Below are positions 5,471-48,428 of a stretch of DNA of 64,000 bases, piece after piece (positions within the stretch are counted from its first letter, which is position 1; each line of letters opens with the position of its first letter). This stretch comes from Plasmodiophora brassicae (lineage: Eukaryota), in NCBI GenBank assembly GCA_036867785.1, contig CP145409.1, positions 1,302,001 to 1,366,000 on the forward strand, given 5' to 3'. A program made the translations under genes and the position numbers. Below the pieces are notes generated by a model that saw only the letters and a program-made list of their open reading frames with translations, was not told where the DNA came from and did no database searches.

Positions 5471-8400
5471 CTACGATGTTGGTGTCCCCTGTGGTATTCG
5501 TGATGCGAGCGAATCGACAGCGGCCGCCAGCTGATCGACTTTGGATGACGTCGCTTTCATGTCGCCCTCCAGTGAGCGGCGCGCTGCGCTCTCCATGCGA
5601 AGTTTCGTTTCAATGCTCGCGCTGAGCTCATCCTTCGTCGTCGACACCATCGTCGTCAACGCTTCCACGTCCGCTTGTACGGTCGCAGCCTTCTCCACCG
5701 ACGTTCCGAACTTCCTCATCATGTCGTCGACGTTGCTGTTGATCGTGTTCACCTTGTCGATAACCCCCGATGCATCCCTCTTAGCATCCATGATGTCCAC
5801 TTTCACCTGGTCCAGTGACTTGGTCAGCGTGTCGACCTTCTCTCCGACGTCGGCACCCTGCTTCTCCAGCACTGACTTCATCGTCGCGTCGTCCGCCTTG
5901 GACCGGGCGTCCACTTCCGATTCCAGCTTCGTCTCTAGCGCCACCACCGCCTGATCGAGTCGATCACCGGCGAGCGTCCGCTCCCTGGCCTCGTTCGCCA
6001 GGCCGTCATCAAGACGGGCTACTTTGGACAGAACGTCGCCCAATTTCGCGTCGAGTGCGGTTTGGCTCTCAACGACTTTCGCCGACAGTTCGCGGAGGTC
6101 GAGGCCCGATCGCTCAGCGAGAGCACCCACCGTCGTATCGGTGTACGATCGCAGGTCGGCGATGAGTTTGGCGTCAACTTGTTCCCGAGATCCCGCCAAC
6201 TCAGCGAATTTCGCCTCGTTCTCCTTCCTGTTCTGGACCTCGTTGTCGAGTGCCGCATGCAAGGCGGTCAGCTTCTCGCCGATCTCAGCATCAGCGGCCT
6301 TGCGATCGCTGGCCTCACCTGATACCATAGCCATGGCGTCCACCATGTTCTTGTCCAACCTGGCGATGTCACTGGTGACGGCTTGCTGGATGTCGCTAAC
6401 AGCCGATGCCCTGGATGAGATCTCGCTCGAAACCCGCTCGTTGATTTCTTTCAGCTGCTCGTCAATGACAGAGTTTCTGTTTCGGATATCGTCCGAGAGT
6501 TTCGCATCCAAGTCTGCCACCTTGCGGTCGCATTCGGTGGCCCGGTCGCGAGCCTCCCCGTCTAGTCTGCCTTCGAACCTGCTCAAGGCCGCGTCGACCC
6601 GCTCGCCGCTTGCCATTCGCTCTTGGGCCTCGCTAGCAATCTTCCTGTCCAGCTGCTCGTCGCCGCTCTGTCGGCCCTGAATCTCCCCGTCCAGTCGCTT
6701 CTCAGCAGCATCGACCTGTGCGATCACGCAGTCGATCTGCGCCGAACGTTCGCGCACTTCGTCGGCGATATTTTTGTCCAGGTCGCGCATCACCCTGTCG
6801 ATCTCCGTGAACCGATCGCGGACATCGCCGTCCAGGCGGCTCTCGACGCCGGCCATCCTTGCCGCCAACCGGTCCGCCTCCGACGAACGTTCGCGCACTT
6901 CGTCGGCGATATTCTTGGCCAAGTCGCTCATCATCCTGTCGGTCGCCGCGAGCCGATCGCAGACGTCGCCGTCGAGTCTGCCTTCAACGCCGGCTATCGT
7001 CATCGTCAACCGATCGGTGTCTAATGCACGTTCGCGAGCTTCGTCTGCGACACGCGAGTCCAGGGCCGACACCTTTCTGTCGACATCGTCGAATCGCTCC
7101 CGAACGTCGCCGTCGAGTCTGCCCTCAACGCCGGCGAACCTCATTGCCACCAGCTCGACGCCTGCGGAACGCTCACTGATCTCGGACGCAAGCTTCGTGT
7201 CGAGCGCGGCGAGCGTCGCATTGACAGTGTCGTTATCAGCCTTGCGGTCGCGGGTCTCGCTGTCGACTTTCGCATCGATGCGCTGTACGTCCTGCGATCG
7301 CTCGAGAGACTCCCTCGCAAGCTTCCCGTCCAGTGTCGCAGTCGCGTCGGCGACGCGATCGACAGACGTGCAACGCGCGCGAATTTCGTCGCTGAGCTTC
7401 CGATCGGTTTCGACGACGGTGCCGTTGAGGCGCTCCTGGGCAGCAACCCTGTCCTTGATTTCAGCGTCGACTATGGCCGCAAGAGCCGTGATCTTCACGT
7501 CGCTGTCCTGGTCGGCCCTAGCGCGATCGCCAGATTCACCAGTCAGGCGCGCGTCGACCGTGTCAACCCGTGCCGCCATGGCGTTCAGGGCGTCAACGCG
7601 ATCCCGTACTTCGGACGCAATCTGGTCGCAGAGGTCGTCCGCCTTGGCATTCGCGTTCCTTGACGACTCTTCCCGAACGAGTACCTCTCTCGCAAGATCG
7701 TCCCCGTGCCTGACGAGCGTGGCGCTCAGCTCGCCGTCCGACGCGATTCGCTCCTGGGTCTCTTTGACGAGCTTCCCGTCCAGCTTCGCCAGCACCTGCT
7801 CCAGGAGCTTCACGTTCGATTGCCGATCGCGCGATTCCGACTCGAGCCGCGCCGACAGTTCACCTCGTAACGCGCACGCCTTCGAGTCGCTGTCCGCCCT
7901 GGCCTGCGCAATCTGCTGGTTGACGTTCTCGACGTCCTTCTGCGTCTCGGCACGCAGCGCCTCGTCCGCGTCCTGACGGGCGCGGCTTTCTGCCACGATC
8001 TCGTCGCGCAGCGCCTTCCGAACGTCGTCAATCGTCGTCAGCGTTGTCGATGATGTCTCCTCCAGGTCGGCGATGCGGCGGGCCAGCGCCTCGGCCGCGG
8101 CGGTGATCGTCCGCTCCAGGCGTCGCTGGGCGCCGGCAATCTCCTGGCAGCGTGCCTCGAACGTGTCCTGGATCTGGGCCGCCCTCTTGGTCAACCGGTC
8201 GACATCGTCGGCGCGGTCGCGCTGGACCCGATCCAGTCCTGTGTCGAGGCGCGTGTCCAGGCGCGCCACTGCCGACGCCGTCGTCTCGCCATGCGCCTTC
8301 CGCGTGCGAATCTGTGCAACGAACGCCCCGCTCAGCGGGTGGATCGCCTTCGTCACTGCGACAGTCGTTTTACCTCGGCGCGCAGCACCGCTTCCAGACG

Positions 8401-9321
8401 TCGCATGCCGCTGGACAACGACGCCACGGCGGCATCGATGTCGGCCTTCAGCCCGACGACGCGATGGTCAGCGTTCGTGTCCACCTCGCGCACCTGCTTC
8501 GAGAGGTCGTCGTTCGCAGCCGTGCACGCGGCGCGGCGCTTGGCAATCTCGCCGAGGATCTCGTCGCGTACCGCGTGCAGGTCAGCGGCAACCGCCTGGA
8601 GGTCATCGGCAACGGCGCGCTCCAGGTTGCCGAACAACTGGCGGGCCATTGCCGCGTTCGACGACGCGCCGTCGTCGACGCGGCGCTTCACGACGCGCAG
8701 GTCGTGACGGAGGGTCTCCAGTTGCACATCGACCGCTTGCCCTGATTGGCGCAGCCGCGAATCGATCATCGACCGCTGCCATTCCTGCATGCCCTCGTCG
8801 GCGGCGCGGGCCCTGCCGAACGCGGCGTGCACCGCTTTGATCTTGTCGTCGACCTCGACGGCCGTCACCACGGGCGGCAACGATGACGACGGGCGGACGA
8901 CGTCGTTCGCAGACGGGAGGCGCTGAGCGGGCGCCGATGATCGCTGCGACAGTTCTGCACGAAGCGCAACGGCGTCGTCGCGAAGCCTCGTGAATTCCGC
9001 CATCAGCGGGCGAACATCGGCCAGGAACTTGTGCTTGTCATGGTCCATGGCGCGTCGGAAGACGCGCATCGTGGCCTGGACGACATCGGACGAGTCGAAC
9101 GTGTCGCCGTCACTGCCTCCGGCGAGGCGATGCCGCAGGGCGATCTGCGACAGGAACTCCTCGTGCCTGGCGATCTGCGCCTGCATCGCCTGACGCTGGG
9201 TGATCTCACGTCGCAACGCAAACTTGAACTTGGACAGGACAGCGTCCAGTGCGCCACGATCGACACGTTCCGCGTCGATGGCCGATGGTGCCGGTCCCGC
9301 ATCCGTCGGCGTCGTCGACAT
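5471..9321 (-). CDS. Large (~1260 aa) repetitive coiled-coil protein, 2 exons
   Basis: ORFs 8353-9321 and 5471-8356 join in frame through a 62-nt intron at 8312-8373 (gtaaaa...ctgag...gcacag). LxxExxxRxxxD repeats occur throughout. Confidence 0.8.
6690..7120 (-). repeat. 141-bp (47-aa) intragenic tandem repeat, ~3 units
   Basis: RLDG(D/E) recurs every 141 nt; gaacgttcgcgcacttcgtcggcgatatt occurs near 6744 and 6885. Confidence 0.85.
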
Positions 9322-9542
9322 GACGAACCGGGTCTGTCACTACGAGGCACGCGGGCCCTCCAGATATTTCCGCTAGTCGGCTCTACGTTTAGAACGGCGC
9401 CCCTGGACCGATATCACGCCGCTGGGCAGCCCTCCTGGATCCCACGTCGGGTCAGCTTAAGAATGCGGACGCTCCGTTTAGCACCTTCCTGCTGAAACAG
9501 CTGAATGGATGAATGTATTGGTTGTCTACAGGCAGCATACGT

Positions 9543-10670
9543 TTAGAAGCACTTGCGGTGGACGATGGACGGGCCGGCCTCGTCGTACTCCTCCTTGGAG
9601 ACCCACATCTGCTGGAAGGTCGACAGCGACGACAGGATCGACCCGCCGATCCAGACCGAGTACTTGCGCTCGGGCGGGGCCACGACCTTGACGCGCATCG
9701 ACGACGGCGCCAGGGCGGCCACCTCCTTCTGCAGGCGCGTCGCCAGCCCGTCGTACATGGTGCTGCCGCCGGACATGACGATGTTCTCGTACAGGTCCTT
9801 GCGGATGTCGACGTCGCACTTCATGATCGACTGGTACGCCAGCTGGTGGATGCCCTCGGACTCGTTGCCGATCATGGACGGCTGGAAGAGGACCTCCGGG
9901 GCGCGGAACCGCTCGTTGCCGACCGTGATGACCTGGCCGTCGGGCAGCTCGTAGGCGCGCTCGACCTCGGACGACTGCTCCGAGTTGGACATCTCGGTGT
10001 CGAAGTCCTGCGCCACGTACGCCAGCTTCTCCTTGATGTCGCGGACGATCTCCCGCTCGGCCGTTGTCGTGAACGCGTACCCGCGCTCGGTCAGGATCTT
10101 CATCAGGTAGTCGGTGATGTCCCGGCCGGCAATGTCCAGGCGCTGGATGGCGTGCGGCAGGGCGTACCCTTCGTAGATGGGGACCGTGTGCGACACGCCG
10201 TCGCCCGCGTCCAGGACGATACCCGTCGTGCGGCCGGACGCGTACAGCGACAGGACGGCCTGGATGGCGACGTACATGGCCGGCGTGTTGAACGTCTCGA
10301 ACATGATCTGCGTCATCTTCTCGCGGTTGGCCTTCGGGTTCAGCGGCGCCTCCGTCAGCATGACCGGGTGCTCCTCGGGGGCCACGCGCAGCTCGTTGTA
10401 GAACGTGTGGTGCCAGATCTTCTCCATGTCGTCCCAGTTCGTCACGATGCCGTGCTCGATCGGGTACTTGAGCGTCAGGATGCCGCGCTTGGCCTGCGCC
10501 TCATCGCCGACGTACGCGTCCTTCTGCGTGGCACCCACCATGATGCCGACGTGGCGCGGGCGACCCACGATCGACGGGAACACGGCACGCGGGGCGTCGT
10601 CGCCCGCGAACCCGGCCTTGACCATGCCGGAGCCATTGTCGACCACCAGGGCCTGGACTTCGTCGGACAT
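9543..10670 (-). CDS. ACT1: Actin (intact, intronless, 375 aa)
   Basis: Canonical actin sequence [23 protein letters not shown]...IVHRKCF. Confidence 0.99.
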
Positions 10671-11458
10671 GTTGATGATGGGAGAGGGGTCGGCTTTGAC
10701 GAACTTGGCTGCGAAGGCTGGCGGTGCGTTTGCGGAATGCAGATCGTGCTGCCCTGAGGGGACGGGTAAACCTCGGCCGGTCGAGTCGCTCCACCCTCTG
10801 CGTTGTGTCCCGATTTAGGTCGGCATTGCTTCATGCACAGATTTAGCTCATCGTGCCGCGCGCGTTTCCAAGAATAGGACAACGACATCTGATGCGCGCA
10901 TCACCAGCCCAAGAGGTGGTGTCCGGCGTAGGCAAACCGTGGATGCGGCTGTAGAGTGTAGACCCAAACCGAAGCAAAGCACTTCATGCTGCTGTTGAAG
11001 GCGGACAACGGGTTCGCACGTCTGTCAGATGCCTTTGATGTCGACAGCTGGTATCCAGATCGGAATTGTTCAGTCGTCGGAATCGTCGCGTGCAGTCTGA
11101 TGACGACGTTTGCGAAGCGGACGGCGACGAAGTGCTTTTCAAGGCTTCTGTCCTTCGACACCGGACGCATCTGGCGATAATACCAAGCTCGTGACGAGCA
11201 CGAAGACATACCTGTCAACAATCATGCCCGGCTGTCGTTGGTCGCCTGCGTCGGCTATCAGGACTTCCACCTCACGGGTGCTCCCTAACGATGCACGGCC
11301 CATTTCGTGGGAATGGATGACAATGTAACCCTGATGTTGTATCTGACCCCGCCGAACTGTCTTCCCAAGAAGCAACGACTGCAGCAACCCCAGCGTGATA
11401 GTCGCAGCAATACACGCGTGCTTGTCAGGGCATGGTCGACGGCTGCCTGGCGAGTTCG

Positions 11459-11496
11459 TGGCGCCCACGCAGGGTAATGGCGCCCACGCAGGGTAA
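11459..11496 (-). repeat. 19-bp tandem direct repeat x2 in the 5S-actin spacer
   Basis: ttaccctgcgtgggcgcca x2 on the minus strand; mirror copy at 18821-18858. Confidence 0.9.
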
Positions 11497-11560
11497 CAGA
11501 CTGTCAGTACTGAGCTCCAGAGCGCATCACAACGATTACGTGATGTGTGTCTGAAAGGAC

Positions 11561-11565
11561 AAAAA
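11561..11565 (-). terminator. Pol III T5 terminator of 5S rRNA
   Basis: TTTTT on the minus strand just after the 5S 3' end. Confidence 0.8.
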
Positions 11566-11566
11566 G

Positions 11567-11687
11567 TGGTTACATCACCATGCGGTTCCCCGGTGGTCCC
11601 CCTCCCGAGTACTGGACAGGCCAAACACCATTTGGCTTCGCAATTCGGAATGAGATACGGCACATTCGGTGTTGTATGAACGTAACC
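11567..11687 (-). rRNA. 5S rRNA: 5S rRNA (copy 1)
   Basis: 121 nt with complementary ends (GGTTAC...GTAACC), CATAC, GAAGCCAA (box A-like), AGTACTCGGGAGGGGGACC (intermediate element/box C-like), GGGAA, and a following T-run. Confidence 0.9.
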
Positions 11688-11850
11688 ATCCGCATGTGGT
11701 CGCTGCGCCGTGTCTGGTGATGTCCCGCCCGGCCTGATGGTCCGGCATTGATGGGTTCCAGATTGAGCAGCAATCCGGGCGGACGTTCCCGGGGTCCGAG
11801 ACACCGACCACCATCCCTGAAACGGGACGGGGGTGTCGGGGCCTTGGAGC

Positions 11851-13490
11851 ATGGAGTCATCTGACGGTGCCGACGAGTTCATGCTGGCCCGCGTACTGCT
11901 GCTCCTTTACGAACGTGTCAATTCATGTAGCGTCGTCGCGCCTCACTCAGCGCCTCGCTCGTGTATCCCGAGAATTTCAGGAGGCACTTCTGAACGTTAC
12001 TCTGCCACCTGGAACGAGCAAGCAGCCAAGTACGATCCTGGACGAACGTCGGTGTGCCCCCTTGATCAAGCGATGGACATCGCCGGTCGCCGGTAACGTG
12101 ACGACACCGAAAGTATGTTTCATCGTCCTGGTCGGTACCTACCGACGTTGCTTCCGTCATTGTCATGAGCTTGCACGCTTCGGCGATGAGGACGTCTTTA
12201 GTCTGGCCGGCGATTCCCTCTGCAGCCATATGGGCGCAGCAAGTACTACTGTCCTGCTCCTCATCTGCTACCCGATCCCACGCGGCAGAGTCTGTGCATT
12301 CCTGCCTCCCTGTCCAGCGCCTGGGTAGTGCCTGGCGCTGATCGCAACGATACGCTCTGCAACTGCCTGCAACTGCCATGGTCTCGTGCACTCCGCGTGG
12401 ATCCTTTCGCCACAGTCAATAGGGAGGTTCGAGATCGTCATCGAAGACAAGTATGCCCGCGTTCAGTACTCGCGTTCCCGCTCGCAGGGACGACCCGCCG
12501 AACCAGATGCGGCGGACGTCCCTGGCGAACATGCGGCCACGACGAGGCGCGTTGAAATCCGTCAAGCCCGCTCATCCCGTTGCCCAGTCCGGCCGATCGT
12601 CGACGACATCGACCAAGGCCCGCAACGTGTCGTTCGCGCCGGGTCCCGACCAGGTCACACATACGTGCCTGGGCATCCTGGCGCCCTGGTTGTTGCACCT
12701 GTAGACATGCCTGACTGCTGTGCTGCTGTGCCTGCAGGGTACCGCTCTGGTGATCCCCCGAACCAGGTGGTGGGGCGCGCGGCCGTCCCGAACATGCAAC
12801 CCCGACCGTCCGCATTGAAGTCTGCCAAGCGCTCGTTGCCGACATTTCACCTGCCGCGGTCGGTCGCACGCGGCTCTTCGACCAGTGCAGGCAGGAGCTG
12901 ATGTCCTAATTGCAGAGCTCAACCTGAGTCGGGCGAGGAGGCCAGACGAGCACGAATTCGGGCACGCCGCCTGGAGCAGGTCCTCAACACATTCTGGAGG
13001 CGTATTCCTGACACCATCGTGGCTGACAAAGTCGTATGTGTACAGGAGGTCCGCGCTGAGGGCGGTGAACGCGGCACCGCTGGTCGACGGGTCAAATCGG
13101 CCACCCCGAGTGGCGCGCGTTCAGGCCGCGTCACTCGTCGCCAGACGCCGTGCACCCAGGCATTGCAGGCGTCGTTGAACGGCAGGAAGCGATCGGATCC
13201 CGCGCCTCGGTCGTCTTTGCTTCGTCGTCGACTCCCACGGTTTCAGGGTGCGTCCGCGACCGTCAACCCTGGTATCAGCGCCAAAGCCCCTTGGCGAATG
13301 GTGCCACCCTTGGCGGTGAAGACGAGGAGCAGGATCCGCGTCGTTGCTTAGTGGATGGCCACTTGCGTCGGCCACATCGCCACAATCAAGCGGTGCGGGC
13401 ATTGCTCTTGTCAAGACTGTTGACCCTTTGTCATCGCTGTACCTGCGCAACTGCAACATGTACTATGCGAATGGTCCGATTCCTGAACTG
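11851..13490 (+). CDS. Possible multi-exon hypothetical protein
   Basis: Coding-like fragments (MESSDGADEFMLARVLLLLYERV; RFEIVIEDKYARVQYS; RLEQVLNTFWRRIPDTIVADKVV) with GT-AG sites. No recognisable homology and boundaries are uncertain. Confidence 0.3.
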
Positions 13491-13712
13491 ATTGTCGTCG
13501 TTGGTTAAAACACGGCTTGGAGTCGGAAGAGTTCGTGTACTGACTGGCGAAGAGCACAGGAGCCAGTGCGCAGCGCTGCGAAGGGCAACATCGCGGAGCT
13601 GCGCCATCGGTGTCGCGGCCACATCAACCGAACCTTTCGCTTCAGGCAGCTGAGGCGGCCGCCACCGACACAGCTGCGTCAGCTGCAGTGGTGACCAGGC
13701 CGGCGCCCCGGC

Positions 13713-14091
13713 ATGGCTGATGACGACAAGGAAGCCATGCATATCCAGGTACGCCGGGATGCAACGGTGTGCCATCGTTATCTGAACGGCGCCGTCGCGT
13801 TTGTTCGAACAGCTGCGGGCGTTCGAGGAGCGCCTGCGGTCGTACGAGTCGCTGCGTCGGGAAATCGACCTGGACGCTGACAACGGCCTGCGTCGCTGGA
13901 TGAACATCGGCGATCTGTTTGTCCGGATCCCGTCCACCACGATCGGCAAGATCATCGAAAACGGTACCCGCGTTTCCTGTTTGCATCGTGGACGCTGATG
14001 GGCGGACTCGTCTACAGATATGCGGGCGATCACCGCCGAAGCCCAGTCATTGCGAGAGCGGATCCACGAAACCGGCCGTGTCGAACAGTAA
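13713..14091 (+). CDS. Prefoldin beta-like / PDRG1-like small protein (3 exons)
   Basis: MADDDKEAMHIQ|LRAFEERLRSYESLRRE...RWMNIGDLFVRIP...|DMRAITAEAQSLRERI: coil-hairpin-coil pattern with a WxxxGxxFV hairpin. Confidence 0.55.
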
Positions 14092-14145
14092 ACGTGGTTG
14101 CCAAGGCAATGCCTTCTTCAGTTACGGTTCATGTTTATCCATCGA

Positions 14146-15450
14146 TTAGTAGATGGGCGCCTCGGCTCGGTCGAGGGCATCGATGCCGGGCGTCGTCTTC
14201 GACGGGTCAGCCGCGACCTGCGTTTTGTACTCCAGGTAGAGCGTAAACAGGACGTGCAGGGATTCCTTGAGGTTGTTGTAGACGGGGATGTCGAGGATGG
14301 CGCAGACGAGCTTGGCCGTGTTGACCAGGTCCAGGTTCAGGTCGGTACCGGGGTCGCCCAGCTCATTGATCAGCGCTTCGTACTCCGGCGCCCACGGTTG
14401 CATCAGTTCGTCGACGTCGGGCATGATTCTCGAGTACGACACGGTCGGCGGCGGCTTCTGCTTGTGCAGGTCCTGGATGCTCGTGATCCACGCCGTGATG
14501 TTCTTCGGGAACTTGTCGGCATTCTCAATGCTCCTCACGGTCACCGCCGTTGCTGACGTCGACTGCTTCGACAGGACCCTCAGTTGCAGGTCCAGGACGG
14601 TTGGGTCGGTTTGGTTCGCTCCTGGCTCGTCCAGTACCACAAGGCCAAGGCCGTCCGGTTTGCCATCGGGGCGCGGCACCTTGATGAAGGCGTCGATGTC
14701 GCCAACGGACGGGATGTACTCGGGGACGAACGGGGCCAGCGGCGTGTCCAGCTCCATAACCTGTGGTTTGTACCGTCCAATGTAGTCGAACAGGTCCAGG
14801 ATCTCGCTGGACACCTTCAGGTCCTTGTAGTCCGCTGGGTTGTACAACGCTGGCGGCTGCACCGATCGCGCCTGCTGCGACGTTTCATCGCCTTCATCGA
14901 CGTCGTCGTCGTCAGCGCTGTCGTCATCGTACTCGCCACCACCACCCTGCCTAACACCAACCAGGTTATTCCCATTGGTCGAATTCGTCACACGGTTGAC
15001 GCTGTTACGAGATCTAGCGACCATATCAGGAATGGACGACACGCGCTGTCAGCGGCCTCTTACCGTTTGACGAGATGATTGGCCTGGGCTTGCGCCTGAT
15101 AAGTATTTGGTTGTCAGGTCAGTCGTGCTGGCGAAGGGCAGTATATGCCCAGTGTACCTGCGGAATTGGTGGCGGCCAGGTGCCGATCCGGTGGCGTCGG
15201 TGATGGGGCCGTCCCAACGGATGCGTCGTCACTCAGTTCGACAGCCTCGTCGTGATGCTGGTTAGGAACGAGCACAGACGTCCCCTACGAGACCGGTCAG
15301 AAGCGCTTGTACCAAACGCAGAACGGTGCCTTATGCGCTCGCACATGTCGTTTCTGTGGTGACCTGGGGGAGGGATCGCCGTAGTCGAATTCGTCGTCAC
15401 CGTCTGGCGACGGGCTGCGATCCAGATCGGTTCGCGCGTCGCTGTCGGAT
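14146..15450 (-). CDS. IFT46: Intraflagellar transport protein 46 (5' exons approximate)
   Basis: YNPADYKDLKVSSEILDLFDYIGRYKPQ, LAPFVPEYIPSVGDIDAFIKVPRPDGKPD.LGL.VLDEP and ESLHVLFTLYLEYK; upstream exon contains NQHHDEAVEL. Confidence 0.92.
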
Positions 15451-15897
15451 GCCTATCGGAGCAATTAACACCAAATGCTTTGGAGGCCAGATGACAGTCC
15501 GATCTCTAACGCTCATCGCGCCGGCGCCACCTGAACGCGGACCGTCTGAAGCTGAAGGCCGCGCGTCCTGTGAGTGTGATGCAGTGACGCCCCCGACTAT
15601 CGGCCGTCCCTCTGCTTTCGTACTCAGAAACCATAGCAGACTCGTCTAGCATGTTCCGCTACAGCGCCACACCCAGGGAAGGTAGCAGGCTCGGGTCGCA
15701 TGTTTCGCAGACGGGCGAAACAACCAGAGAGATGGCTGAAGGCGCTGGCGGCGGCGCCTCCTCCTGCGGTGCTTTCCCGTTCGCTGTGTGTGGCGACTTT
15801 ATTTTTAGGTCGCGGCGGGTTGCTAAAAAATGGCTGACCGGCCGACGACAGCAAAACGACGTAGCGGTCGGGGCGTCATTTGGGATTGGGACCGCCG

Positions 15898-17148
15898 ATG
15901 GGGAAGGGCGAACAGGAGAAGGCTCTCTGCCGGGCCATCACCTGCCATGCGTGGAACGCCGACCGCACGCAGGTCGCCGTCTGCCCGAACAACAATGAGG
16001 TTCACATATTCGCCGTCAGCGGCACGGACGCCGGCAACTGGACGGCGCTGCACGTGCTGAAAGAGGTCCGTCTAGCGTCGTCACGGTATCGTCGTCCCCC
16101 GGTGGCTGAATGGTGTGTACAGCATGATTCGTTGGTGTCGGGAATCGATTGGTGCCCCCGTACGAATATGATCGTGACGTGCGGGCACGACCGGAACGCG
16201 TATGTCTGGAAACTGGTGGACAATGTCTGGTGCCCGACACTTGTCATTCTGCGCATCAACCGGGCGGCGACCTCTGTGAAATGGTCGCCGTCCGGCGCGA
16301 AATTCGCAGTGACGAGCGGCGCCAAAGCCGTCCCAGTTTGCCATTACGAGCAGGGCAACGACTGGTGGGTCAGCAAGACCATCAAGAAGCACAAGTCGAC
16401 CGTGCTGACGCTGGACTGGAACCGAAACAACAAGTTCGTCGTCACCGGCTGTGCCGACTTCAAGTGCCGCATCTTCTCTGCGTTCATTGACGACGTTGAC
16501 GTCGACGAGGACCATGACGCGTGGGCGGACATCTTCCCGAACCAGAACCGGTTTGGCGCCCAACTCGCCGAGTTCGACGCCGCCAACGGCTGGGTCGAGG
16601 CTGTATCGTGGTCGCCAAGCGGCTATCGTCTTGCATTCGCCTCGCATGACTCGTCGGTGCACATTGTCCAGATCCTCGCTGGCGAACCACCAACCTGCCA
16701 GACCATCTCCACCGCATTCCTCCCGTTCTCTGCTGTTGTATTCCTGTCCGAGGACGCTGTCGTGTTCGCCGGGTACGATGCCAACCCGGTCCTGTTCATC
16801 AACAAAGGAACGGAAGCAGAGCCCTCATTCGAAGCGCATGGTGTCCTGGACAAGATGCTGGCGACGCCGGGATCGAAGCCCAAGGCGGTGTCAAGCTTCT
16901 CGAACGCGCGTAACCTGTTCGACGCGTCATCGCGAATGGGTGTCAACTTTGGCACTGAATCGACGGACACTGACGGGACGCTGAAGACGCGGCACCAGAA
17001 CGCCATCAACGGCCTCGTTCCGTTCTGGGCGGACGAGACGCGCTACCATGCCATCGAGTTTAGCACGTGCGGCATCGATGGACGGGTCCTCCTCTGGAAC
17101 ATGTCCAAGATCGATGGCGTCAATCTCGCCGATATCGGCCTGGCGTAA
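15898..17148 (+). CDS. ARPC1: Arp2/3 complex subunit 1 (p41-Arc)
   Basis: ITCHAWNADRTQVAVCPNNNEVHIF, DRNAYVW, LVILRINRAATSVKWSP, NDWWVSKTIKK and HQNAI; in-frame intron at about 16066-16122. Confidence 0.96.
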   Translation: MGKGEQEKALCRAITCHAWNADRTQVAVCPNNNEVHIFAVSGTDAGNWTALHVLKEVRLASSRYRRPPVAEWCVQHDSLVSGIDWCPRTNMIVTCGHDRNAYVWKLVDNVWCPTLVILRINRAATSVKWSPSGAKFAVTSGAKAVPVCHYEQGNDWWVSKTIKKHKSTVLTLDWNRNNKFVVTGCADFKCRIFSAFIDDVDVDEDHDAWADIFPNQNRFGAQLAEFDAANGWVEAVSWSPSGYRLAFASHDSSVHIVQILAGEPPTCQTISTAFLPFSAVVFLSEDAVVFAGYDANPVLFINKGTEAEPSFEAHGVLDKMLATPGSKPKAVSSFSNARNLFDASSRMGVNFGTESTDTDGTLKTRHQNAINGLVPFWADETRYHAIEFSTCGIDGRVLLWNMSKIDGVNLADIGLA

Positions 17149-18629
17149 CAGCCAGTCCTCTGCCCAATGATATATCCAACAGTTGTATACGCTGCGAACC
17201 CCATCGTGATTCATCGTGGGATCGGTACACCCATTCGCATAAACGACCTGTCGTGCTTCACGTAGCCCAAGGCGCAGCGAAGTGCAGTCGCATGCGACTA
17301 TGGCGCGAAGGCGAAACCATGGTGAGGGACGGAGCCGTAAGCAACTCGTTGACAGGGGACAAACAGGTTCTATGGAAGGGATCCAGAAGCGGACTTGGAG
17401 AGACAAGCACAGGCCGACTTGAAGGGAGATCAGAAGCGGCCTCCTCGATCGGGAACTCCTACTCGAAGAACAACCGGGGCCTCAGCGCCGCTGCTCCCAT
17501 GCGAGTATCGTGGAGGCGGATCATACCCGTTTGGACGACGTTGCTCTTCCGGTGGTACCTGGACACGACCGACCGCATTAAATGCAGCTTCCGTTAACTT
17601 GTCCATTGTACCTGGACGTGTCAGGGTACGGTATACCTACTGGAAACACCATGAGGCTTGGAAACCAGTGAATGCCCTGCACAATCATCGCTGAGCGCAA
17701 ACCCGGCGGTCACGATATACGCGTTGTCTGGACGTGTTAGTACACGAGGTCCTGCGGGTTCAACGTTCACGACAAATCTGAACATCCTGAACAAATGGAG
17801 TCTCCGCGATATACGATTGACCCGGTGGCCAGGCTCGTTAGGGCGGGGACCAGGACCATCGATGTGGGGACGCTGGGATGCTGAGGACGATGATGATGAT
17901 GGCGGCGACGAGCCTGCGGTTGGTGGTGGTGGTGCACGCCTCCCAACAAGAACATGGCACCAGTGCCCCTGGGTCGATCCGGACGGCAGATGGAGGCATC
18001 CTGAAGGACGCGGTCGGAAACCGGACTCTGGGAACGCCGGAACATGGCGCCAGTTGGCACAGGACCTGGATCCACAGCCAGCTGGACAACGACGACCAGG
18101 ACATGCCGACGTGTTCGCAGGAATTGGGTGCTGCGATCCGATCACTGCGTTTCGAGGCGGTATAGACGATGATATCTCTGTAGGTGGACGCGCGCACGGA
18201 ATCCGTCCCCATGCTTGGCTGCATCGCCTTCCAGGAGTCGTACCACCCACCCAGCCACCCTACAAATGGCCAGCAACAGGCAACCATGCAACAGGGCAAG
18301 TTTGCCGACGACGTCGACCGGTGACGTCGCCTGTTGGTTCTCGGCAACACTGATAACCCAGACTTGTAGAGCTGTCAGCGATACGGGGATTACGGCCAAT
18401 GTCCAGTCGTCGATAGATCCGGCCAAATATTTGCCATCAACACACTACCCCTAGATAGCGAACAAACGGAGCGCTTCGGCTCACCCGGAGAGCCGATGAA
18501 GATAGGGCGCAGGTCGGAAATCCCCCGACGGTCCCTCCGGTTACGTGATTCAAACTCAGACCACTGCCCGGACAATCGACTTCGTCTTGTATAGCGTGAT
18601 TCGAACTGCCGCAATGACGGCTAACCGAC

Positions 18630-18750
18630 GGTTACGTTCATACAACACCGAATGTGCCGTATCTCATTCCGAATTGCGAAGCCAAATGGTGTTTGGCCTG
18701 TCCAGTACTCGGGAGGGGGACCACCGGGGAACCGCATGGTGATGTAACCA
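18630..18750 (+). rRNA. 5S rRNA: 5S rRNA (copy 2)
   Basis: Appears identical to copy 1; followed by CTTTTT. Confidence 0.9.
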
Positions 18751-18751
18751 C

Positions 18752-18756
18752 TTTTT
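18752..18756 (+). terminator. Pol III T5 terminator of 5S rRNA
   Basis: TTTTT just after the 5S 3' end. Confidence 0.8.
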
Positions 18757-19646
18757 GTCCTTTCAGACACACATCACGTAATCGTTGTGATGCGCTCTGG
18801 AGCTCAGTACTGACAGTCTGTTACCCTGCGTGGGCGCCATTACCCTGCGTGGGCGCCACGAACTCGCCAGGCAGCCGTCGACCATGCCCTGACAAGCACG
18901 CGTGTATTGCTGCGACTATCACGCTGGGGTTGCTGCAGTCGTTGCTTCTTGGGAAGACAGTTCGGCGGGGTCAGATACAACATCAGGGTTACATTGTCAT
19001 CCATTCCCACGAAATGGGCCGTGCATCGTTAGGGAGCACCCGTGAGGTGGAAGTCCTGATAGCCGACGCAGGCGACCAACGACAGCCGGGCATGATTGTT
19101 GACAGGTATGTCTTCGTGCTCGTCACGAGCTTGGTATTATCGCCAGATGCGTCCGGTGTCGAAGGACAGAAGCCTTGAAGAGCACTTCGTCGCCGTCCGC
19201 TTCGCAAACGTCGTCATCAGACTGCACGCGACGATTCCGACGACTGAACAATTCCGATCTGGATACCAGCTGTCGACATCAAAGGCATCTGACAGACGTG
19301 CGAACCCGTTGTCCGCCTTCAACAGCAGCATGAAGTGCTTTGCTTCGGTTTGGGTCTACACTCTACAGCCGCATCCACGGTTTGCCTACGCCGGACACCA
19401 CCTCTTGGGCTGGTGATGCGCGCATCAGATGTCGTTGTCCTATTCTTGGAAACGCGCGCGGCACGATGAGCTAAATCTGTGCATGAAGCAATGCCGACCT
19501 AAATCGGGACACAACGCAGAGGGTGGAGCGACTCGACCGGCCGAGGTTTACCCGTCCCCTCAGGGCAGCACGATCTGCATTCCGCAAACGCACCGCCAGC
19601 CTTCGCAGCCAAGTTCGTCAAAGCCGACCCCTCTCCCATCATCAAC

Positions 19647-20773
19647 ATGTCCGACGAAGTCCAGGCCCTGGTGGTCGACAATGGCTCCGGCATGGTCAAG
19701 GCCGGGTTCGCGGGCGACGACGCCCCGCGTGCCGTGTTCCCGTCGATCGTGGGTCGCCCGCGCCACGTCGGCATCATGGTGGGTGCCACGCAGAAGGACG
19801 CGTACGTCGGCGATGAGGCGCAGGCCAAGCGCGGCATCCTGACGCTCAAGTACCCGATCGAGCACGGCATCGTGACGAACTGGGACGACATGGAGAAGAT
19901 CTGGCACCACACGTTCTACAACGAGCTGCGCGTGGCCCCCGAGGAGCACCCGGTCATGCTGACGGAGGCGCCGCTGAACCCGAAGGCCAACCGCGAGAAG
20001 ATGACGCAGATCATGTTCGAGACGTTCAACACGCCGGCCATGTACGTCGCCATCCAGGCCGTCCTGTCGCTGTACGCGTCCGGCCGCACGACGGGTATCG
20101 TCCTGGACGCGGGCGACGGCGTGTCGCACACGGTCCCCATCTACGAAGGGTACGCCCTGCCGCACGCCATCCAGCGCCTGGACATTGCCGGCCGGGACAT
20201 CACCGACTACCTGATGAAGATCCTGACCGAGCGCGGGTACGCGTTCACGACAACGGCCGAGCGGGAGATCGTCCGCGACATCAAGGAGAAGCTGGCGTAC
20301 GTGGCGCAGGACTTCGACACCGAGATGTCCAACTCGGAGCAGTCGTCCGAGGTCGAGCGCGCCTACGAGCTGCCCGACGGCCAGGTCATCACGGTCGGCA
20401 ACGAGCGGTTCCGCGCCCCGGAGGTCCTCTTCCAGCCGTCCATGATCGGCAACGAGTCCGAGGGCATCCACCAGCTGGCGTACCAGTCGATCATGAAGTG
20501 CGACGTCGACATCCGCAAGGACCTGTCGAGAACATCGTCATGTCCGGCGGCAGCACCATGTACGACGGCCTGGCGACGCGCCTGCAGAAGGAGGTGGCCG
20601 CCCTGGCGCCGTCGTCGATGCGCGTCAAGGTCGTGGCCCCGCCCGAGCGCAAGTACTCGGTCTGGATCGGCGGGTCGATCCTGTCGTCGCTGTCGACCTT
20701 CCAGCAGATGTGGGTCTCCAAGGAGGAGTACGACGAGGCCGGCCCGTCCATCGTCCACCGCAAGTGCTTCTAA
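19647..20773 (+). pseudogene. ACT: Actin copy 2 with 1-nt deletion (pseudogene or sequencing error)
   Basis: gacctgtcgag here versus gacctgtacgag in copy 1 (A missing after 20526). The remaining actin sequence continues in another frame to HRKCF*. Confidence 0.85.
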
Positions 20774-20867
20774 ACGTATGCTGCCTGTAGACAACCAATA
20801 CATTCATCCATTCAGCCCGCCAGGGGTCACTCCGAAAGGGCCTTTAGTTGTACAATGGGATGATGGC

Positions 20868-22289
20868 CTAACGATTCCAGTACGTTCGTCGGCGAATGAC
20901 GTCGTAGTCGGGAAGCTCGTTGATGGCACCCAGGGCGCTGACGACCAGGTCGGCGTCCTCCAGGTACTTCTTCGCACAGGCACGAACCGCCTCCGTGTCG
21001 ATGTTATCGATGCGCGCGACGATCTCAGCCGGGTGAATACGCCGCCCGTGGCACAGCATCTGCCTGCCGACCTCGTCCGCCAGCGTCGTCGTCCCGTCCA
21101 ACGCCGTTAGCGTCGCGGCCTTCAGCATGTGCCTGGCCATCAGCACCTTCTCGTCCGTCAAGTCGTAGCACGTCTTGCAGATCCCGTTCATAATCTGGTA
21201 GACCGCCTCGTTCAAGTCGCACGGCCTCGCCTCGACGTACAGGCCGAACAGGCCCGTATCGTTGTACAGCGACACGAACGGGCTCAGCTTGTCGACACAG
21301 TCCGACTTGATGACACTCTCGACCAGGTTAGAGTGCGAGTAATTACCGGCTGCCGCCGTCTGCGACGCCAACCCCCGATCGAACTTGCCGAGCAATGTCT
21401 GAAGGTACAGCAGCGGGATCGCGTCCGCTGAGTTCACGCCTTCCGTCTTGAACGCCAACGCCCAATGTGCTCTGCCGAGTTCGTCGTTCCTGACGCGCGT
21501 ATCGCCCGGCGTGAATTGCGCGGGAGCGAGCGGGAGCGGGTCGGCGGGCGGCGGGTTCAGGTCCCCAAAGTGCTTATCGGTGAGCTCGACAAGCTGGTCG
21601 TGGTCAACGGCACCCGTCCCGACCACCAGGAACCGATCCGTCGTGTAGTGCCGGTCGATGTATGCCAGCAGCATGTCGCGGTTGATGTTCCTGGCGATCT
21701 GCTCGGCGGATCCGAGGATGGTGTGCCCCAGGGACTGGCCCGGGTACGCGGACTCGTGCAGACGGTCGAAGACGACTTCCTCGGGGATCGACTCAATCTC
21801 CTGCAATTCGCGAAGGATCACATCGCGCTCGACGTCGATCGCTCTCGGGTCCAGGCGCGAGTACTGCAGGATGTCGGAGAGGATGTCCATCGACTGAGGG
21901 ATATGGTCCTGGAAAACGGATGCGAAGAACACAGTGTGCTCCCGCGACGTGTACGCGTTCAGGTGCGCGCCGATGTTCTCCACTTCCTTCTCGAGGCCGA
22001 CGCGCGTCCGTTGCCGGGTGCCCTTGAACTTCAGGTGCTCCAGGAAATGGGCGGCGCCGTTGTTCTCGGCGGTTTCGTACCTGGATCCGGCGTTGATCCA
22101 GACCTGGATCGTGGCCGTGCGCCCCGGCAGGGTTTCGGTCGCGACGCGCACGCCGTTCGATGCCGTCGACACGCGGCACTCCGGGTACGACGTGAACATC
22201 GTGTACGGCGAGTTCGACCGCCATGACGACTGAAGCGGCGACACGTCGACCTTGAATCGGCGTACGCCACGCCGCAGCATGCTCGTCAT
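20868..22289 (-). CDS. MPPB: Mitochondrial processing peptidase beta subunit
   Basis: Arg-rich presequence, [21 protein letters not shown] (HxxEH), LNAYTSRE, and C-terminal [12 protein letters not shown]. Confidence 0.95.
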
Positions 22290-22688
22290 GATGCCCGGGC
22301 GCCGCAGAAGTCGGTACTGCGGCTGCTGCAGCTTCCCGGACTGCGTATGGCCGTCGCCGTCGCGGTCTGGATTCGCTCCTGCCGATGGGGACGGGCCGCC
22401 CGATACGGCTATCGCAGTTCGTCAGGCTTCCTCTTCAGATGGTGTTGTAATGCGCCGTCGCCGTGTTGCTTGTGATTCGAGGGGCGGTGACGATGTCCAC
22501 AATGCAGCAGCCAGCACGCGACCTGGTCAGTAGAATGGAACGCGATCGGAAGGGTCCGGTTGGCCTGTACCCCCATAACGACAGGTGGCGTGCAATGGGC
22601 AGTATGTGTTCTCGAACACAGAATGTATTAGTACAAGATTCAATCGCGATCGAAGTGCACACGACAGCGTAGGTAGGTAGTGGCTGTG

Positions 22689-23584
22689 ATGGTCGGGCGA
22701 GTTGCCATCATCGCCCTTCTCGTCGTCGCCCAATGCTCCGGGGCCTTGCTCGAAGGCAGGTCGCTGGTTGACGTCGTCGAACTTCTGTCGCATCCGATCA
22801 TGGATGACTATGGCAATGAGTTCCCCGCCTACTGGATGTCGTTCGACTGCACATCTCTAGGTGGCGCAGACTGCACCCTGTCGAAGAAGTCACCCGGCGA
22901 CCGTAACCGGACTCCAGAAACCGCCAAAGCGTTCTCCATGGTTGTCGAAGCCATTCGAGCCACGGTACTGGCATTACAACGCGGACGAATTCAGGTCGCT
23001 CACATTAGTACTCCACCCAGGTTGGCTCATTGTTGTCTGATCCGTCGGTGAACAACGATGCCCTAGAAGTGGTGCTTCGAGCGCTGCTAGGTCCAGACAG
23101 TATCGACGAGTTCGGATTGCACGTAGAGGATGGCAAGGGCGAGGCGGAAACGAATATTCCAAATCAGATCGCGGACGCCAACGACAGTATGGTAGGGGAT
23201 GCGGCTCCCGCCCCTATCCCGTTGTACGTCATTGGCAAATCGTTCACAGCGCATACGTTCTCCGTCCATTTCAACATGCTTAAGGCGGAACCGTACGATG
23301 TAATCGACGACGGCATAGAAGACGAGTCTGGTGGGGCCCTTCAACCATCACGGCAGGGCGACGAGCTGCCAACCGCAATGTTCTCGAAGCAGCTGGTTGT
23401 GCACATGGCGGTGCCCGTAAGAGCATCCGACTCCGAACTAGAGGTCATTCCAGTCGATGTGCTCATCCGGTGCAACGTGTTCGAAAAGCGACTATTCTAC
23501 CAGTTCCGATGCCTCGTGCAGTTCTGCCCGAAACAGAGCGCCGGCCACGACGCTCATGTCGACGGAGACCACTTCAAGCATTGA
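22689..23584 (+). CDS. Putative secreted hypothetical protein (~280 aa, 2 exons)
   Basis: Signal-peptide-like MVGRVAIIALLVVAQCSGA; in-frame intron 22965-23020 joins two ORFs. Confidence 0.65.
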
Positions 23585-36749: not shown

Positions 36750-36831
36750 GCACGCGGACAGCGTCGCGCAACTCGGGCAGCACACAGCACGCGGACAGCG
36801 TCGCGCAACTCGGGCATCACACAGCACGCGG
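36750..36831. repeat. 37-bp tandem repeat x2.2 in the divergent desaturase/MetRS intergenic region
   Basis: gcacgcggacagcgtcgcgcaactcgggca(g/t)cacaca x2 plus a partial gcacgcgg. Confidence 0.9.
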
Positions 36832-47000: not shown

Positions 47001-47563
47001 GGCCATCCTGCTGCTCGTCAACGAAGTGTCCACCAGCACCGTCTTCCAGCGGACGATCCTTCTCATCCAGTGCATTGCCGCGCTGTTCGTTTCAGGTGTG
47101 GAACAGTGGACCCGCCTTGTTCCCTGGAATGCTGCTCAACGTATCCAATGTTGCAGTGGTGCCGTACGTCTGGTACGCGTGCGTCAAGGTGGTGTTCCTG
47201 CTCGACGACAGGAAGGCGCGCAAGTCGAGTCACGTGTCGGAGGCGATCGCGAGCACGAACATGGCGGCGAAGGGGTACACCAGCACGAAGAAGACGAAAG
47301 GCGACACGAAGGTAGCCGGCGGCACATCTGTGCAACTGGGCGATAGCACGTCGGAGAGCGCCACGGCGGGCGATGCGGCGGACACGAAGGGCCTCCAGTC
47401 GGACGTCTCGAAGAACTTCCGGATCAAGCTGGACGAGGTGCAGAAGGCGCTCACCGAGTACAACATGTACGACCAGCTGGCGCAGAAGTCCAGCGCCAAA
47501 TTCAACAAGCTCAAGTCCGAGTTGCTGCAGATGGAGGCGGAAATGGATTTCAGGAACCAGTAG
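44021..47563 (+). CDS. Heme peroxidase-DOMON-class C 7TM GPCR-coiled-coil fusion, paralog A (7 exons)
   Basis: Peroxidase: YRPMDG, GQFLAHD, TSWLDLNLVYG, GDPRCN, WDDETLFQEARR, AAFRYGHS, DIQRGRDRG. DOMON: GWAGIGFGTQMAGSD...QHG. Seven hydrophobic segments including CAWRLFLSSMGFSLIFATLLGKLYRY. Inferred introns approximately 44804-44878, 45182-45246, 45634-45691, 46326-46377, 46608-46668 and 47097-47156. Confidence 0.85.
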
Positions 47564-47678
47564 AACCGAGCAAATTTCGTCCGCATTCTTCACGTCATCA
47601 TCGTCAGTACAACTAAACTCGTTTTGGACACGGAACCCAGCTGTCATGTCGGACGCGTTTGGAATTGGCTATAATAAA

Positions 47679-47905
47679 TAGTTCGAGAACAAGGAGATAA
47701 CACACCGCTGTTGGTGATGGACTGGAACGGTCCCGTGAGCGTGACGTATCGAGCGGTGTTCGGATTGGACCCAGTTGGCGTCGAGCCCTTGACGTCTGCG
47801 TATGCCTGTGGCCGACTCGCGATAAAGTCAAGCGGCTGTGTAGGTGGTTTCCCAGACCGGATGCTCGGCCGGGATTCGCGTTGTACCCGTCCATAGGCGA
47901 TACCT
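47679..47905 (-). pseudogene. Decayed 5' fragment of a third peroxidase-receptor paralog
   Basis: Minus strand reads, with frameshifts, PMDGYNANP..HPVWETT..QPLDFI..PQAYAD..NTARYV..PFQ..NSGV..SLFSNY, matching exon 1 of paralog B. Confidence 0.8.
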
Positions 47906-48428
47906 TGTCTTTGACTGCATCTTGGACGTCGGCGCCAGACACGTCTGTCAATATGCTATACGAATAATAGAGACCGGGCTGTGTTACGTCTGTGGCGCTT
48001 ACTTCTGTACCCCAACGATGAACGGGACATCAGGGGTATTTACTGTCTGACGCCGACTCTGGATTCGAGAAACGCAAAGGGCAGGTCACCCAAAGCAACT
48101 TCCCCATGGGTTCATGAACATAAACCTGGATGCAGGAGCGGGTAGGAGAAGGTGAAGCGCGTGGCAAAGACGGTAGATGATGGAAGTTATATAGCCGCAC
48201 CAGAACCGTAATCAAATCACAGCGGATAGCCAGACGCCACAGGCATCCAGTGGGACCTCTCGACAACGTTCCGAGACAGCTTTTACAGCGCTATCTAATT
48301 TCAAGGAGAGAAGCCGAAGTCCAATTTGCTTCGACTTGACAGGGGAACCATGGCTCAGCTTACAAACAGATTTATTGTTGCTGTTTCACCAGTCAGGTAT
48401 GGCCACTTTGAACAAAGCACAATGGAAC

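What the first reader, a model, noticed from the sequence alone, without database searches (positions are those of the whole stretch)
9500..20816. 5S rRNA-actin cassette duplicated as a 2.19-kb inverted repeat with a boundary exactly at 5S +1
Seen: arm identity starts at the first base of the 5S gene (upstream gcggat versus ccgac), runs through about 0.9 kb of spacer and intronless actin, and stops 43 nt after the actin stop codon. About 3 differences were noticed; no poly(A) tail or clear target-site duplication. Established: 5S genes are often linked to other multicopy genes in protists. Inference: ectopic recombination or gene conversion seeded at dispersed 5S genes copied or homogenises actin, or the cassette is a repeated mobile unit.
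Basis: partly seen in the sequence, partly recalled or inferred. Interest (0 to 1): 0.7.

Follow-up and report, generated by a model that had tools for sequence, protein, structure and literature searches.

The report
Inverted 5S rRNA–actin duplication in clubroot pathogen
Two near-identical, head-to-head copies of a 2.19-kb block (a 5S rRNA gene followed by an actin gene) sit 6.9 kb apart in the Plasmodiophora brassicae genome, a young local gene duplication whose inner edge falls exactly on the first base of the 5S gene; it is a neat but fairly ordinary case.

Summary
The arms are 9500-11687 and 18630-20816 (2188 and 2187 nt). They differ at three places only. Each arm starts at position 1 of a full-length 5S rRNA gene (RF00001, 81.7 bits) and ends 43 nt after the actin stop codon.

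The organism is Plasmodiophora brassicae.

It frameshifts the right actin copy at codon 294. This is either a fresh pseudogene or a consensus error.

Both edges are sharp. There is no residual flank homology. There is no poly(A), target-site duplication, terminal inverted repeat or 5S remnant at the outer ends.

My best reading (about 0.45) is copying primed by 5S homology between two pre-existing, inverted 5S genes, with a non-homologous outer junction. The closest published parallel is wtf genes duplicating onto dispersed 5S genes in fission yeasts (PMC9562144).

The premise that other 5S genes are dispersed in this genome could not be tested. A plain segmental duplication with a coincidental edge remains a serious rival (about 0.3).

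Interest is low to moderate.

The parts
9500..11687 (-). Left unit (2188 nt): 5S gene, spacer, actin, 43-nt tail; read 5'->3' on the minus strand
11567..11687 (-). 5S rRNA gene, left copy; T5 terminator directly after it (11561-11565)
   Evidence: RF00001 81.7 bits, model 1-120; only T>=4 run of the unit's sense strand
10671..11566 (-). 896-nt spacer (presumed actin promoter and 5' UTR); contains a perfect 19-nt tandem duplication (11459-11496)
   Evidence: no Rfam match at E<=1; no other copy in the window
9543..10670 (-). Actin gene, left copy, intact, uninterrupted ORF of 375 aa, GC3 0.97
   Evidence: (PF00022; 99-100% to P. brassicae actins)
9500..9542 (-). 43 nt after the actin stop codon; outer end of the left arm
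18630..20816 (+). Right unit (2187 nt), same content as the left unit
18630..18750 (+). 5S rRNA gene, right copy, 121/121 identical to the left copy; T5 at 18752-18756
18590..18596 (+). TATAGCG, a TATA-like motif at -40..-34 of the right 5S gene; no such motif within 80 nt upstream of the left 5S gene
   Evidence: read by eye
19647..20773 (+). Actin gene, right copy: identical product up to residue 293, then out of frame
20526..20527 (+). Site of the 1-nt deletion (second base of codon 294, TAC); the shifted ORF runs on to 21110 (487 aa)
11688..18629 (.). Unique 6942-nt centre between the two 5S starts; holds IFT46 (14146-15024, -) and a WD40 gene (15898-17148, +). The several hundred nt next to each 5S start show no codon periodicity
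20868..22289 (-). Peptidase M16 gene, convergent with the right actin; its stop codon lies 51 nt beyond the arm end
8353..9321 (-). Coiled-coil ORF with coding-type GC3 (0.81); its start codon lies 178 nt beyond the left arm end

Best explanation
This is a young DNA-level inverted duplication in the nuclear genome of Plasmodiophora brassicae. It may instead be an older pair kept identical by gene conversion. The copied unit is a complete 5S rRNA gene with its T5 terminator, the 896-nt spacer that must carry the actin promoter, an intronless actin gene, and 43 nt of 3' flank. The two units lie head to head around a unique 6.9-kb centre.

Inferred mechanism: two 5S genes already lay here in opposite orientation. 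A broken or stalled DNA end carrying 5S sequence at one of them paired with the other. The new strand was joined back without homology a few dozen bases after the actin stop codon. Because separate 5S genes share only the transcribed 121 nt, such an event leaves an edge exactly at 5S +1.

After the duplication one actin copy became redundant; the right copy now carries a frameshift.

Shown: the anatomy, the sharp edges, and the absence of retro or transposon marks. Inferred: the 5S-primed copying, which copy was the donor, and whether the frameshift is real.
For: The repeat and its three differences are.

Both 5S copies are full length at 81.7 bits. They keep their helices through two-sided changes relative to the closest 5S sequences found: 6 of 40 predicted pairs have such changes, and four of those six (columns 15/65, 17/62, 81/97, 83/95) involve the window's sequence, by my reading of the alignment. 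So these are real genes, not fragments.

The edges are sharp. Local alignment of 300 nt of inner flanks and of outer flanks scores no better than shuffles (z = -1.0 and -0.2). Outer-flank ungapped identity is 7/40.

There is no A-run, direct repeat or inverted termini at the ends. There is no 5S fragment at the outer ends.

The region next to each 5S start is non-coding for a few hundred nt, so a random break had a few hundred possible positions.

Precedent: in Schizosaccharomyces, wtf genes were shown to have duplicated onto pre-existing dispersed 5S genes. Ectopic gene conversion or circle integration was proposed as the mechanism (PMC9562144, passages read).

A second, older inverted gene pair lies in the same window (haem peroxidase-DOMON, 74-81% identical). 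So local inverted duplication recurs here.
Against: The key premise is untested.

The 5S-peptide search of protein libraries found no further P. brassicae 5S locus.

In 13 of 17 metagenome contigs with the most similar 5S (101-102 of 121 identical), the gene sits in the rDNA spacer rather than dispersed.

Only one side of the unit has 5S homology. The two-sided conversion and circle models proposed for wtf therefore do not apply as such.

The first 29 nt upstream of the two 5S genes match at 14 positions (P about 0.01 against random window pairs). That could hint at slightly longer original homology, or at a shared promoter element.
Confidence: 0.45

Rival explanations
1. A plain segmental (inverted) duplication of one ancestral 5S-actin block, with breakpoints unrelated to 5S homology. 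In a genome where genes fill about two thirds of the DNA, only copies that carry whole genes and end in short intergenic gaps survive. The edge at +1 is then a coincidence.
For: The genome is compact. The right arm ends 51 nt from the stop codon of the M16 gene, and the left arm ends 178 nt from the next start codon. Genes make up 66% of the genome (PMC4471660, passage read). A second inverted gene pair without any 5S lies at 44021-51881. No other 5S gene of this genome could be shown.
Against: The non-coding stretch upstream of each 5S is a few hundred nt. An edge within one base of +1 therefore has a chance of roughly 1 in 100 to 1 in 300 (my estimate). That is low but not negligible for a finding picked out of many windows.
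Confidence: 0.3
2. Assembly artefact: only one 5S-actin block exists and the second arm was created by the assembler. A milder form: the repeat is real but the 1-nt deletion is a consensus error.
For: No database protein carries the frameshifted tail, and the 487-aa product is not in the collection.
Against: Both arms are embedded in unique sequence with intact neighbouring genes on every side. They differ at three positions, and they lie internally in the window. Artefactual palindromes usually sit at contig ends with no unique spacer (general knowledge). The deleted base is not in a homopolymer (CTGTACGAG becomes CTGTCGAG).
Confidence: 0.07
3. RNA-mediated copy: a transcript started at 5S +1, read through the T5 terminator and ran to the actin mRNA end. 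It was then reverse-transcribed and inserted.
For: One edge is at a transcription start and the other is a short distance after a stop codon. The unit's sense strand has no second run of four or more T after the 5S terminator. The actin gene has no intron, although genes of this species average 4 introns (PMC4471660).
Against: There is no poly(A) tract and no target-site duplication. The copy would have to read through a canonical T5 terminator. IFT46, the WD40 gene and the M16 gene in the same window are also long uninterrupted ORFs, so the lack of an intron is weak evidence.
Confidence: 0.05
4. The 5S-actin block is a mobile or multicopy cassette present at many sites.
For: Only the sharp, identical ends of the two copies.
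Against: There are no inverted termini, target-site duplication or transposase. The window holds only two copies of the 5S and of the spacer. Three other near-identical actin products of the species (P0064, P0067, P0068) have different residues directly upstream of the start codon than the window's copies.
Confidence: 0.03

Closest known systems
[quoted passage not shown]
   Same: A protein-coding gene travels with a 5S gene. 5S homology is proposed as the anchor for non-allelic copying, and the duplicates are near-identical.
   Different: There, many copies exist: 72 of 83 wtf genes are 5S-associated in one species, often with 5S on both sides as direct repeats, and pre-existing 5S genes at the empty sites were shown by synteny. 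Here there are only two copies, in inverted orientation, with 5S on one side only. The gene is a housekeeping actin, and the empty-site test could not be done.
5S rRNA genes linked to other repeated genes (rDNA, histone genes, spliced-leader genes) or dispersed (Drouin and de Sa 1995, as cited in PMC10946416; passage read)
   Same: A 5S gene is physically coupled to another gene and copied together with it.
   Different: Those are tandem multigene arrays. Actin is not among the partners named in the passage read. This is a two-copy inverted pair, not an array. Three literature searches for 5S-actin linkage or P. brassicae nuclear 5S found nothing on it.
5S gene inside the rDNA intergenic spacer (L-type arrangement)
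   Same: The most similar 5S genes I could find (101-102 of 121 nt identical; unnamed soil and rhizosphere metagenome contigs) belong to this type.
   Different: 13 of 17 such contigs carry SSU or LSU rRNA next to the 5S. The window carries no SSU, LSU or 5.8S rRNA at all. Whether P. brassicae also has rDNA-linked 5S genes is unknown.
5S-derived retroelements (SINE3-type SINEs, Cassandra TRIMs; PMC10946416)
   Same: 5S sequence sits at the very start of a repeated unit.
   Different: Those carry a 5S promoter fragment, tails or LTRs, and are present in many copies. Here there is a complete 5S gene with its terminator, no tail, no LTR, and two copies.
Growth of an inverted repeat by copying outward from its edge (plastid inverted-repeat 'ebb and flow'; template exchange at nearby inverted repeats in fission yeast). 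Recalled from memory; no paper read here
   Same: A short inverted repeat (here two 121-nt 5S genes) could have been extended outward on one side.
   Different: This is a nuclear locus. The extension is 2 kb on the downstream side only. No experimental evidence is available.

Membership tests
5S ribosomal RNA gene (RF00001) | Covariance-model score above the curated threshold over the full model | tested here: met
   81.7 bits against a gathering score of 38, model positions 1-120 of 120, both copies
5S ribosomal RNA gene (RF00001) | Helices kept through compensatory changes relative to related sequences | tested here: met
   6 of 40 predicted pairs have two-sided changes in a 7-sequence alignment. 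Those at columns 15/65, 17/62, 81/97 and 83/95 involve the window's sequence, by my reading of the alignment
5S ribosomal RNA gene (RF00001) | RNA polymerase III terminator (run of T) directly after the gene | tested here: met
   TTTTT at 18752-18756 and at its mirror position in the left arm
5S ribosomal RNA gene (RF00001) | Upstream TATA-like element near -30, as in the closest 5S genes found | tested here: inconclusive
   7 of 8 distinct metagenome flank types have [T/G]ATA starting at -31..-28. The right copy has TATAGCG at -40; the left copy has none within 80 nt (read by eye)
5S ribosomal RNA gene (RF00001) | Transcribed into a stable 5S rRNA | not testable with these tools
Actin (PF00022) | Full-length actin domain and close identity to known actins | tested here: met
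   Left copy: 375 aa, PF00022 precomputed, 99-100% identical to P. brassicae Actin I and II
Actin (PF00022) | Intact reading frame in both copies | tested here: not met
   The right copy lacks one base in codon 294 and reads out of frame for 194 codons. Real mutation or consensus error is undecided
Processed retrocopy | Poly(A) tract at the 3' end and target-site duplication | tested here: not met
   The unit ends ...CATTCAGC, followed by TGTTTC (left) and CCGCCA (right). There are no flanking direct repeats
Transposable element or mobile cassette | Terminal inverted or direct repeats, target-site duplication, more than two copies | tested here: not met
   The termini GGTTACG... and ...CATTCAGC are unrelated. 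There are two copies in 64 kb. Genome-wide copy number is not testable
Gene duplication onto pre-existing dispersed 5S genes (wtf type) | Duplicate bounded by 5S sequence, with homology ending at the 5S gene edge | tested here: met
   The inner edge is at 5S +1 and there is no flank homology. This holds on one side of the unit only
Gene duplication onto pre-existing dispersed 5S genes (wtf type) | Other dispersed 5S genes in the genome, and a lone 5S at the syntenic site in relatives | not testable with these tools
   No genome is held. Protein-library searches with the 5S-encoded peptide were uninformative
rDNA-linked (L-type) 5S | 5S gene within the spacer of an 18S-5.8S-28S unit | tested here: not met
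   No SSU, LSU or 5.8S match anywhere in the 64-kb window

The most novel reading that the evidence does not exclude
5S rRNA genes are scattered through the P. brassicae genome and act as portable homology anchors. Through them, neighbouring genes (here actin, a family with at least seven near-identical or similar members in this species) are copied to new sites. This would be a housekeeping-gene counterpart of the 5S-assisted spread of wtf drivers in fission yeasts, and the first such case in Rhizaria.
Probability: 0.15. Interest if true: 0.55.

Novelty: new member of a known kind. Interest (0 to 1): 0.3.

Why it matters
If the 5S-primed reading is right, this locus is a clean, almost undecayed snapshot of how a 121-nt RNA gene can seed the duplication of a neighbouring protein gene. 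One junction is homologous and the other is illegitimate.

It also records two things I did not find described for P. brassicae in the papers searched: where at least two nuclear 5S genes lie, and that they are linked to actin rather than to rDNA.

There is a practical point. P. brassicae actin is commonly used as a reference gene (my recollection; no call checked this). Primer design and copy-number reasoning should take account of two near-identical copies, one of them possibly broken.

If the edge is a coincidence, this is an ordinary young segmental duplication.

Tried and rejected
Whole-genome search: no genome is held for this window.

Reads: the look-up of sequencing runs listed 24 runs. 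Twenty of them, from 8 studies, hold at least half of the sampled words of 11700-21400. All are kept as contigs, and no RNA holder was listed. Because arm words are identical in both arms, these shares do not test the two-copy structure.

Read depth, junction support, the deletion, paralogue variants and transcript ends therefore all remain unexamined.

Metagenome scan with a 32-nt 5S word: 0 hits. A 22-nt word gave 17 contigs. None carries actin (tblastn).

Frameshift tail (residues 290-487 of the shifted product) against the protein collection: one hit, P0122. It turned out to be an unrelated organism's actin, 70% identical, shifted at a different place. It says nothing about this locus.

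Exact look-up: the intact product is on record on 2 contigs; the shifted product is not on record.

Trick to find other 5S loci through ORFs that read across the 5S gene: there was no candidate in the word-indexed collection (135-433 aa only). There were 10 hits at 59-71% identity in the representative library, and none was P. brassicae-like.

Earlier notes of this scan: three look-ups, nothing.

Residual homology beyond the arms: ungapped 14/29 upstream (P about 0.01) is not supported by local alignment. I treat it as chance or a short promoter element.

Rfam at E<=1 over 8000-19800 gave only two sub-threshold mir-598 matches in the central genes (24.4 and 22.8 bits against 69), taken as chance.

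No tRNA genes were found in the window.

Papers: P. brassicae genome papers (PMC6823432, PMC4471660), a review (PMC9831288) and an rDNA paper (PMC5297718) were searched for terms only. None mentions nuclear 5S genes or this actin pair. Their supplementary files were not seen and may list rRNA genes.
Full report
OBSERVATION.
The repeat finder on 8000-23000 reports one inverted repeat in two pieces, 9791-11707/18610-20526 and 9500-9789/20527-20816. A MAFFT alignment of the two arms with 60 nt of flank shows uninterrupted identity from 9500 to 11687 against 20816 to 18630. A base-by-base script finds exactly three differences:
- A/G at unit position 551 (11137/19180, spacer).
- One A missing from the right arm at unit position 1898 (opposite 9790; between 20526 and 20527).
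- G/C at unit position 1941 (9747/20569).

Rfam places full-length 5S rRNA (model 1-120, 81.7 bits, gathering score 38, E = 8e-16) at 11687-11567 on the minus strand and 18630-18750 on the plus strand. The inner edge of the repeat is therefore the first base of 5S. The bases at -1 differ (T and C).

The left actin ORF is 9543-10670 on the minus strand, 375 aa, so the arm ends 43 nt after the stop codon.

ORGANISM AND ANATOMY.
The actin product is 99-100% identical to proteins named Actin I and Actin II of Plasmodiophora brassicae. The exact product is on record in NCBI and UniRef on two contigs, the longer being 2,120,846 bases.

Each unit reads, in its own direction: a 121-nt 5S gene, a TTTTT terminator one base later, an 896-nt spacer, an uninterrupted actin reading frame with extreme codon bias (GC3 0.97), and a 43-nt tail.

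The two units are head to head. The two 5S starts face a unique centre of 6942 nt. That centre holds an IFT46 gene (14146-15024, minus; Pfam E = 1e-84) and a WD40 gene (15898-17148, plus).

Outside the arms, a peptidase M16 gene ends 51 nt beyond the right arm. A coiled-coil ORF starts 178 nt beyond the left arm.

Codon-position composition shows no coding signal for roughly 600 nt next to the left 5S start and roughly 380 nt next to the right one.

THE MISSED DIFFERENCE.
The single-base deletion removes the second base of codon 294 (TAC) in the right actin copy. The frame then stays open by chance for 194 more codons, giving a 487-aa ORF that runs to 21110.

The other coding difference is synonymous in the intact frame (GGG/GGC).

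The deletion is either a fresh inactivating mutation in a redundant copy or a consensus error. The base is not in a homopolymer, which argues mildly for a real mutation. No database protein carries the shifted tail and the shifted product is not on record, which argues neither way. I put real against error at about 60:40.

THE EDGES.
Local alignment of 300 nt of inner flanks and of 300 nt of outer flanks scores no better than shuffled controls (z = -1.0 and -0.2). Ungapped identity beyond the outer edge is 7/40.

Beyond the inner edge, ungapped identity is 14/29. That is nominally unusual (P about 0.01 against random window pairs), but no gapped alignment supports it.

There is no A-rich tail, no flanking direct repeat and no inverted termini. 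There is no partial 5S at the outer ends, and no further copy of the 5S or the spacer in the 64-kb window.

The unit's sense strand has a single run of four or more T, the 5S terminator itself.

RELATIVES OF THE 5S GENE.
A 22-nt word of the 5S gene hit 17 metagenome contigs. Sixteen of the 17 carry a full 5S gene (78.6-88.1 bits), 101-102 of 121 nt identical to the window's gene. L009 carries a degenerate copy.

Thirteen of the 17 also carry SSU and/or LSU rRNA, which places the 5S gene in the rDNA spacer. It is on the same strand in 4 and on the opposite strand in 9. Three of the four short contigs without rRNA repeat the 5S and flanks of rDNA-linked ones. None carries actin. These organisms are unnamed. 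I call them only the closest 5S sequences available.

Compared with them, the window's 5S keeps its helices through two-sided changes, as expected of a working gene.

Seven of their 8 distinct upstream flanks have a [T/G]ATA motif starting at -31 to -28. The right copy here has TATAGCG at -40, and the left copy has nothing similar within 80 nt (read by eye). This weakly suggests that the right site is the older 5S locus. It also raises the question of whether the left 5S is transcribed as well.

OTHER ACTINS.
Annotated P. brassicae actins P0064, P0067 and P0068 are 99-100% identical to the window's product. They carry Ser where both window copies have Ala at residue 199. Their predicted N-terminal extensions differ from the translation of the window's sequence just upstream of the start codon. 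Two more actins are about 91% identical (P0078, P0098). So the species has several actin loci, and only this pair shares the 5S-spacer flank as far as protein records can show.

MECHANISM.
The lack of any retro or transposon mark, and the inclusion of a promoter-bearing spacer and a terminator, point to a DNA-level event.

A base-exact edge at 5S +1 is what one expects if the event was primed by pairing between two separate 5S genes, which share only their transcribed part. Synthesis would run from the 5S homology through spacer and actin. The product would then be sealed without homology 43 nt after the stop codon.

Published work on fission yeasts shows genes duplicating onto pre-existing dispersed 5S genes, and proposes ectopic conversion or circle integration (PMC9562144; passages read). 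The present case differs in having 5S on one side only and in being inverted. A one-ended, template-switch type of event is therefore needed. That part is inference.

I give this reading 0.45. The main rival (0.3) is an ordinary inverted segmental duplication whose edge fell at +1 by chance within a few hundred permissible bases, filtered by the need to keep whole genes in a compact genome. A second inverted gene pair without 5S (haem peroxidase-DOMON, 44021-51881, 74-81% identical) shows that such duplications happen here anyway.

Assembly artefact (0.07), an RNA-mediated copy (0.05) and a mobile cassette (0.03) are less likely, for the reasons listed under the rivals. Whether the pair is very young or is kept identical by conversion cannot be told from one genome.

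WHAT COULD NOT BE DONE.
No whole genome is held. So copy number of 5S, read support for the repeat and the deletion, and transcript ends are all open.

Literature searches for P. brassicae nuclear 5S, for 5S-actin linkage and for this actin pair found nothing. Term searches within four P. brassicae papers found no mention either.

VERDICT.
The feature is real in the sequence and is accurately described. It is a new instance of known kinds of event: 5S linked to and copied with another gene, and a young inverted segmental duplication. Interest is 0.3.

Noticed in passing
window 44021-47097 and 48824-51881: A second, older inverted repeat (arms about 3 kb, 74-81% identical, 1.7 kb apart). It is a convergent pair of genes encoding animal-type haem peroxidase plus DOMON domains.
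   Followed up: partly
window 18821-18858 (mirror 11459-11496): Perfect tandem duplication of a 19-nt motif (TTACCCTGCGTGGGCGCCA) about 70 nt downstream of each 5S gene, in the 5S-actin spacer. It may be a promoter or factor-binding element (read by eye).
   Followed up: no
window 5471-7579 (-), 14146-15024 (-): Genes around the actin pair are flagellum-related: an SF-assemblin/beta-giardin-like coiled-coil protein and IFT46. The SF-assemblin-like ORF contains a 141-nt tandem repeat at 6684-6965.
   Followed up: no
L001-L017 (metagenome contigs): Unnamed soil and rhizosphere eukaryotes whose 5S is 83-84% identical to that of P. brassicae carry it in the rDNA intergenic spacer, on either strand depending on lineage. 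Several have a group I intron in the LSU rRNA gene.
   Followed up: partly
P0064, P0067, P0068, P0078, P0098: P. brassicae has at least seven actin loci by protein records. Several have 99-100% identical products but different upstream sequence. Whether their DNA homology stops at the coding edges (conversion or retro-origin) is open.
   Followed up: partly
window 36750-36823: Two tandem copies of a 37-nt unit, 97% identical.
   Followed up: no
P0122: An unrelated organism's actin record (304 aa) is also frameshifted near its 3' end. Its out-of-frame tail resembles that of the window's right copy only because both are out-of-frame readings of GC-rich actin genes.
   Followed up: yes
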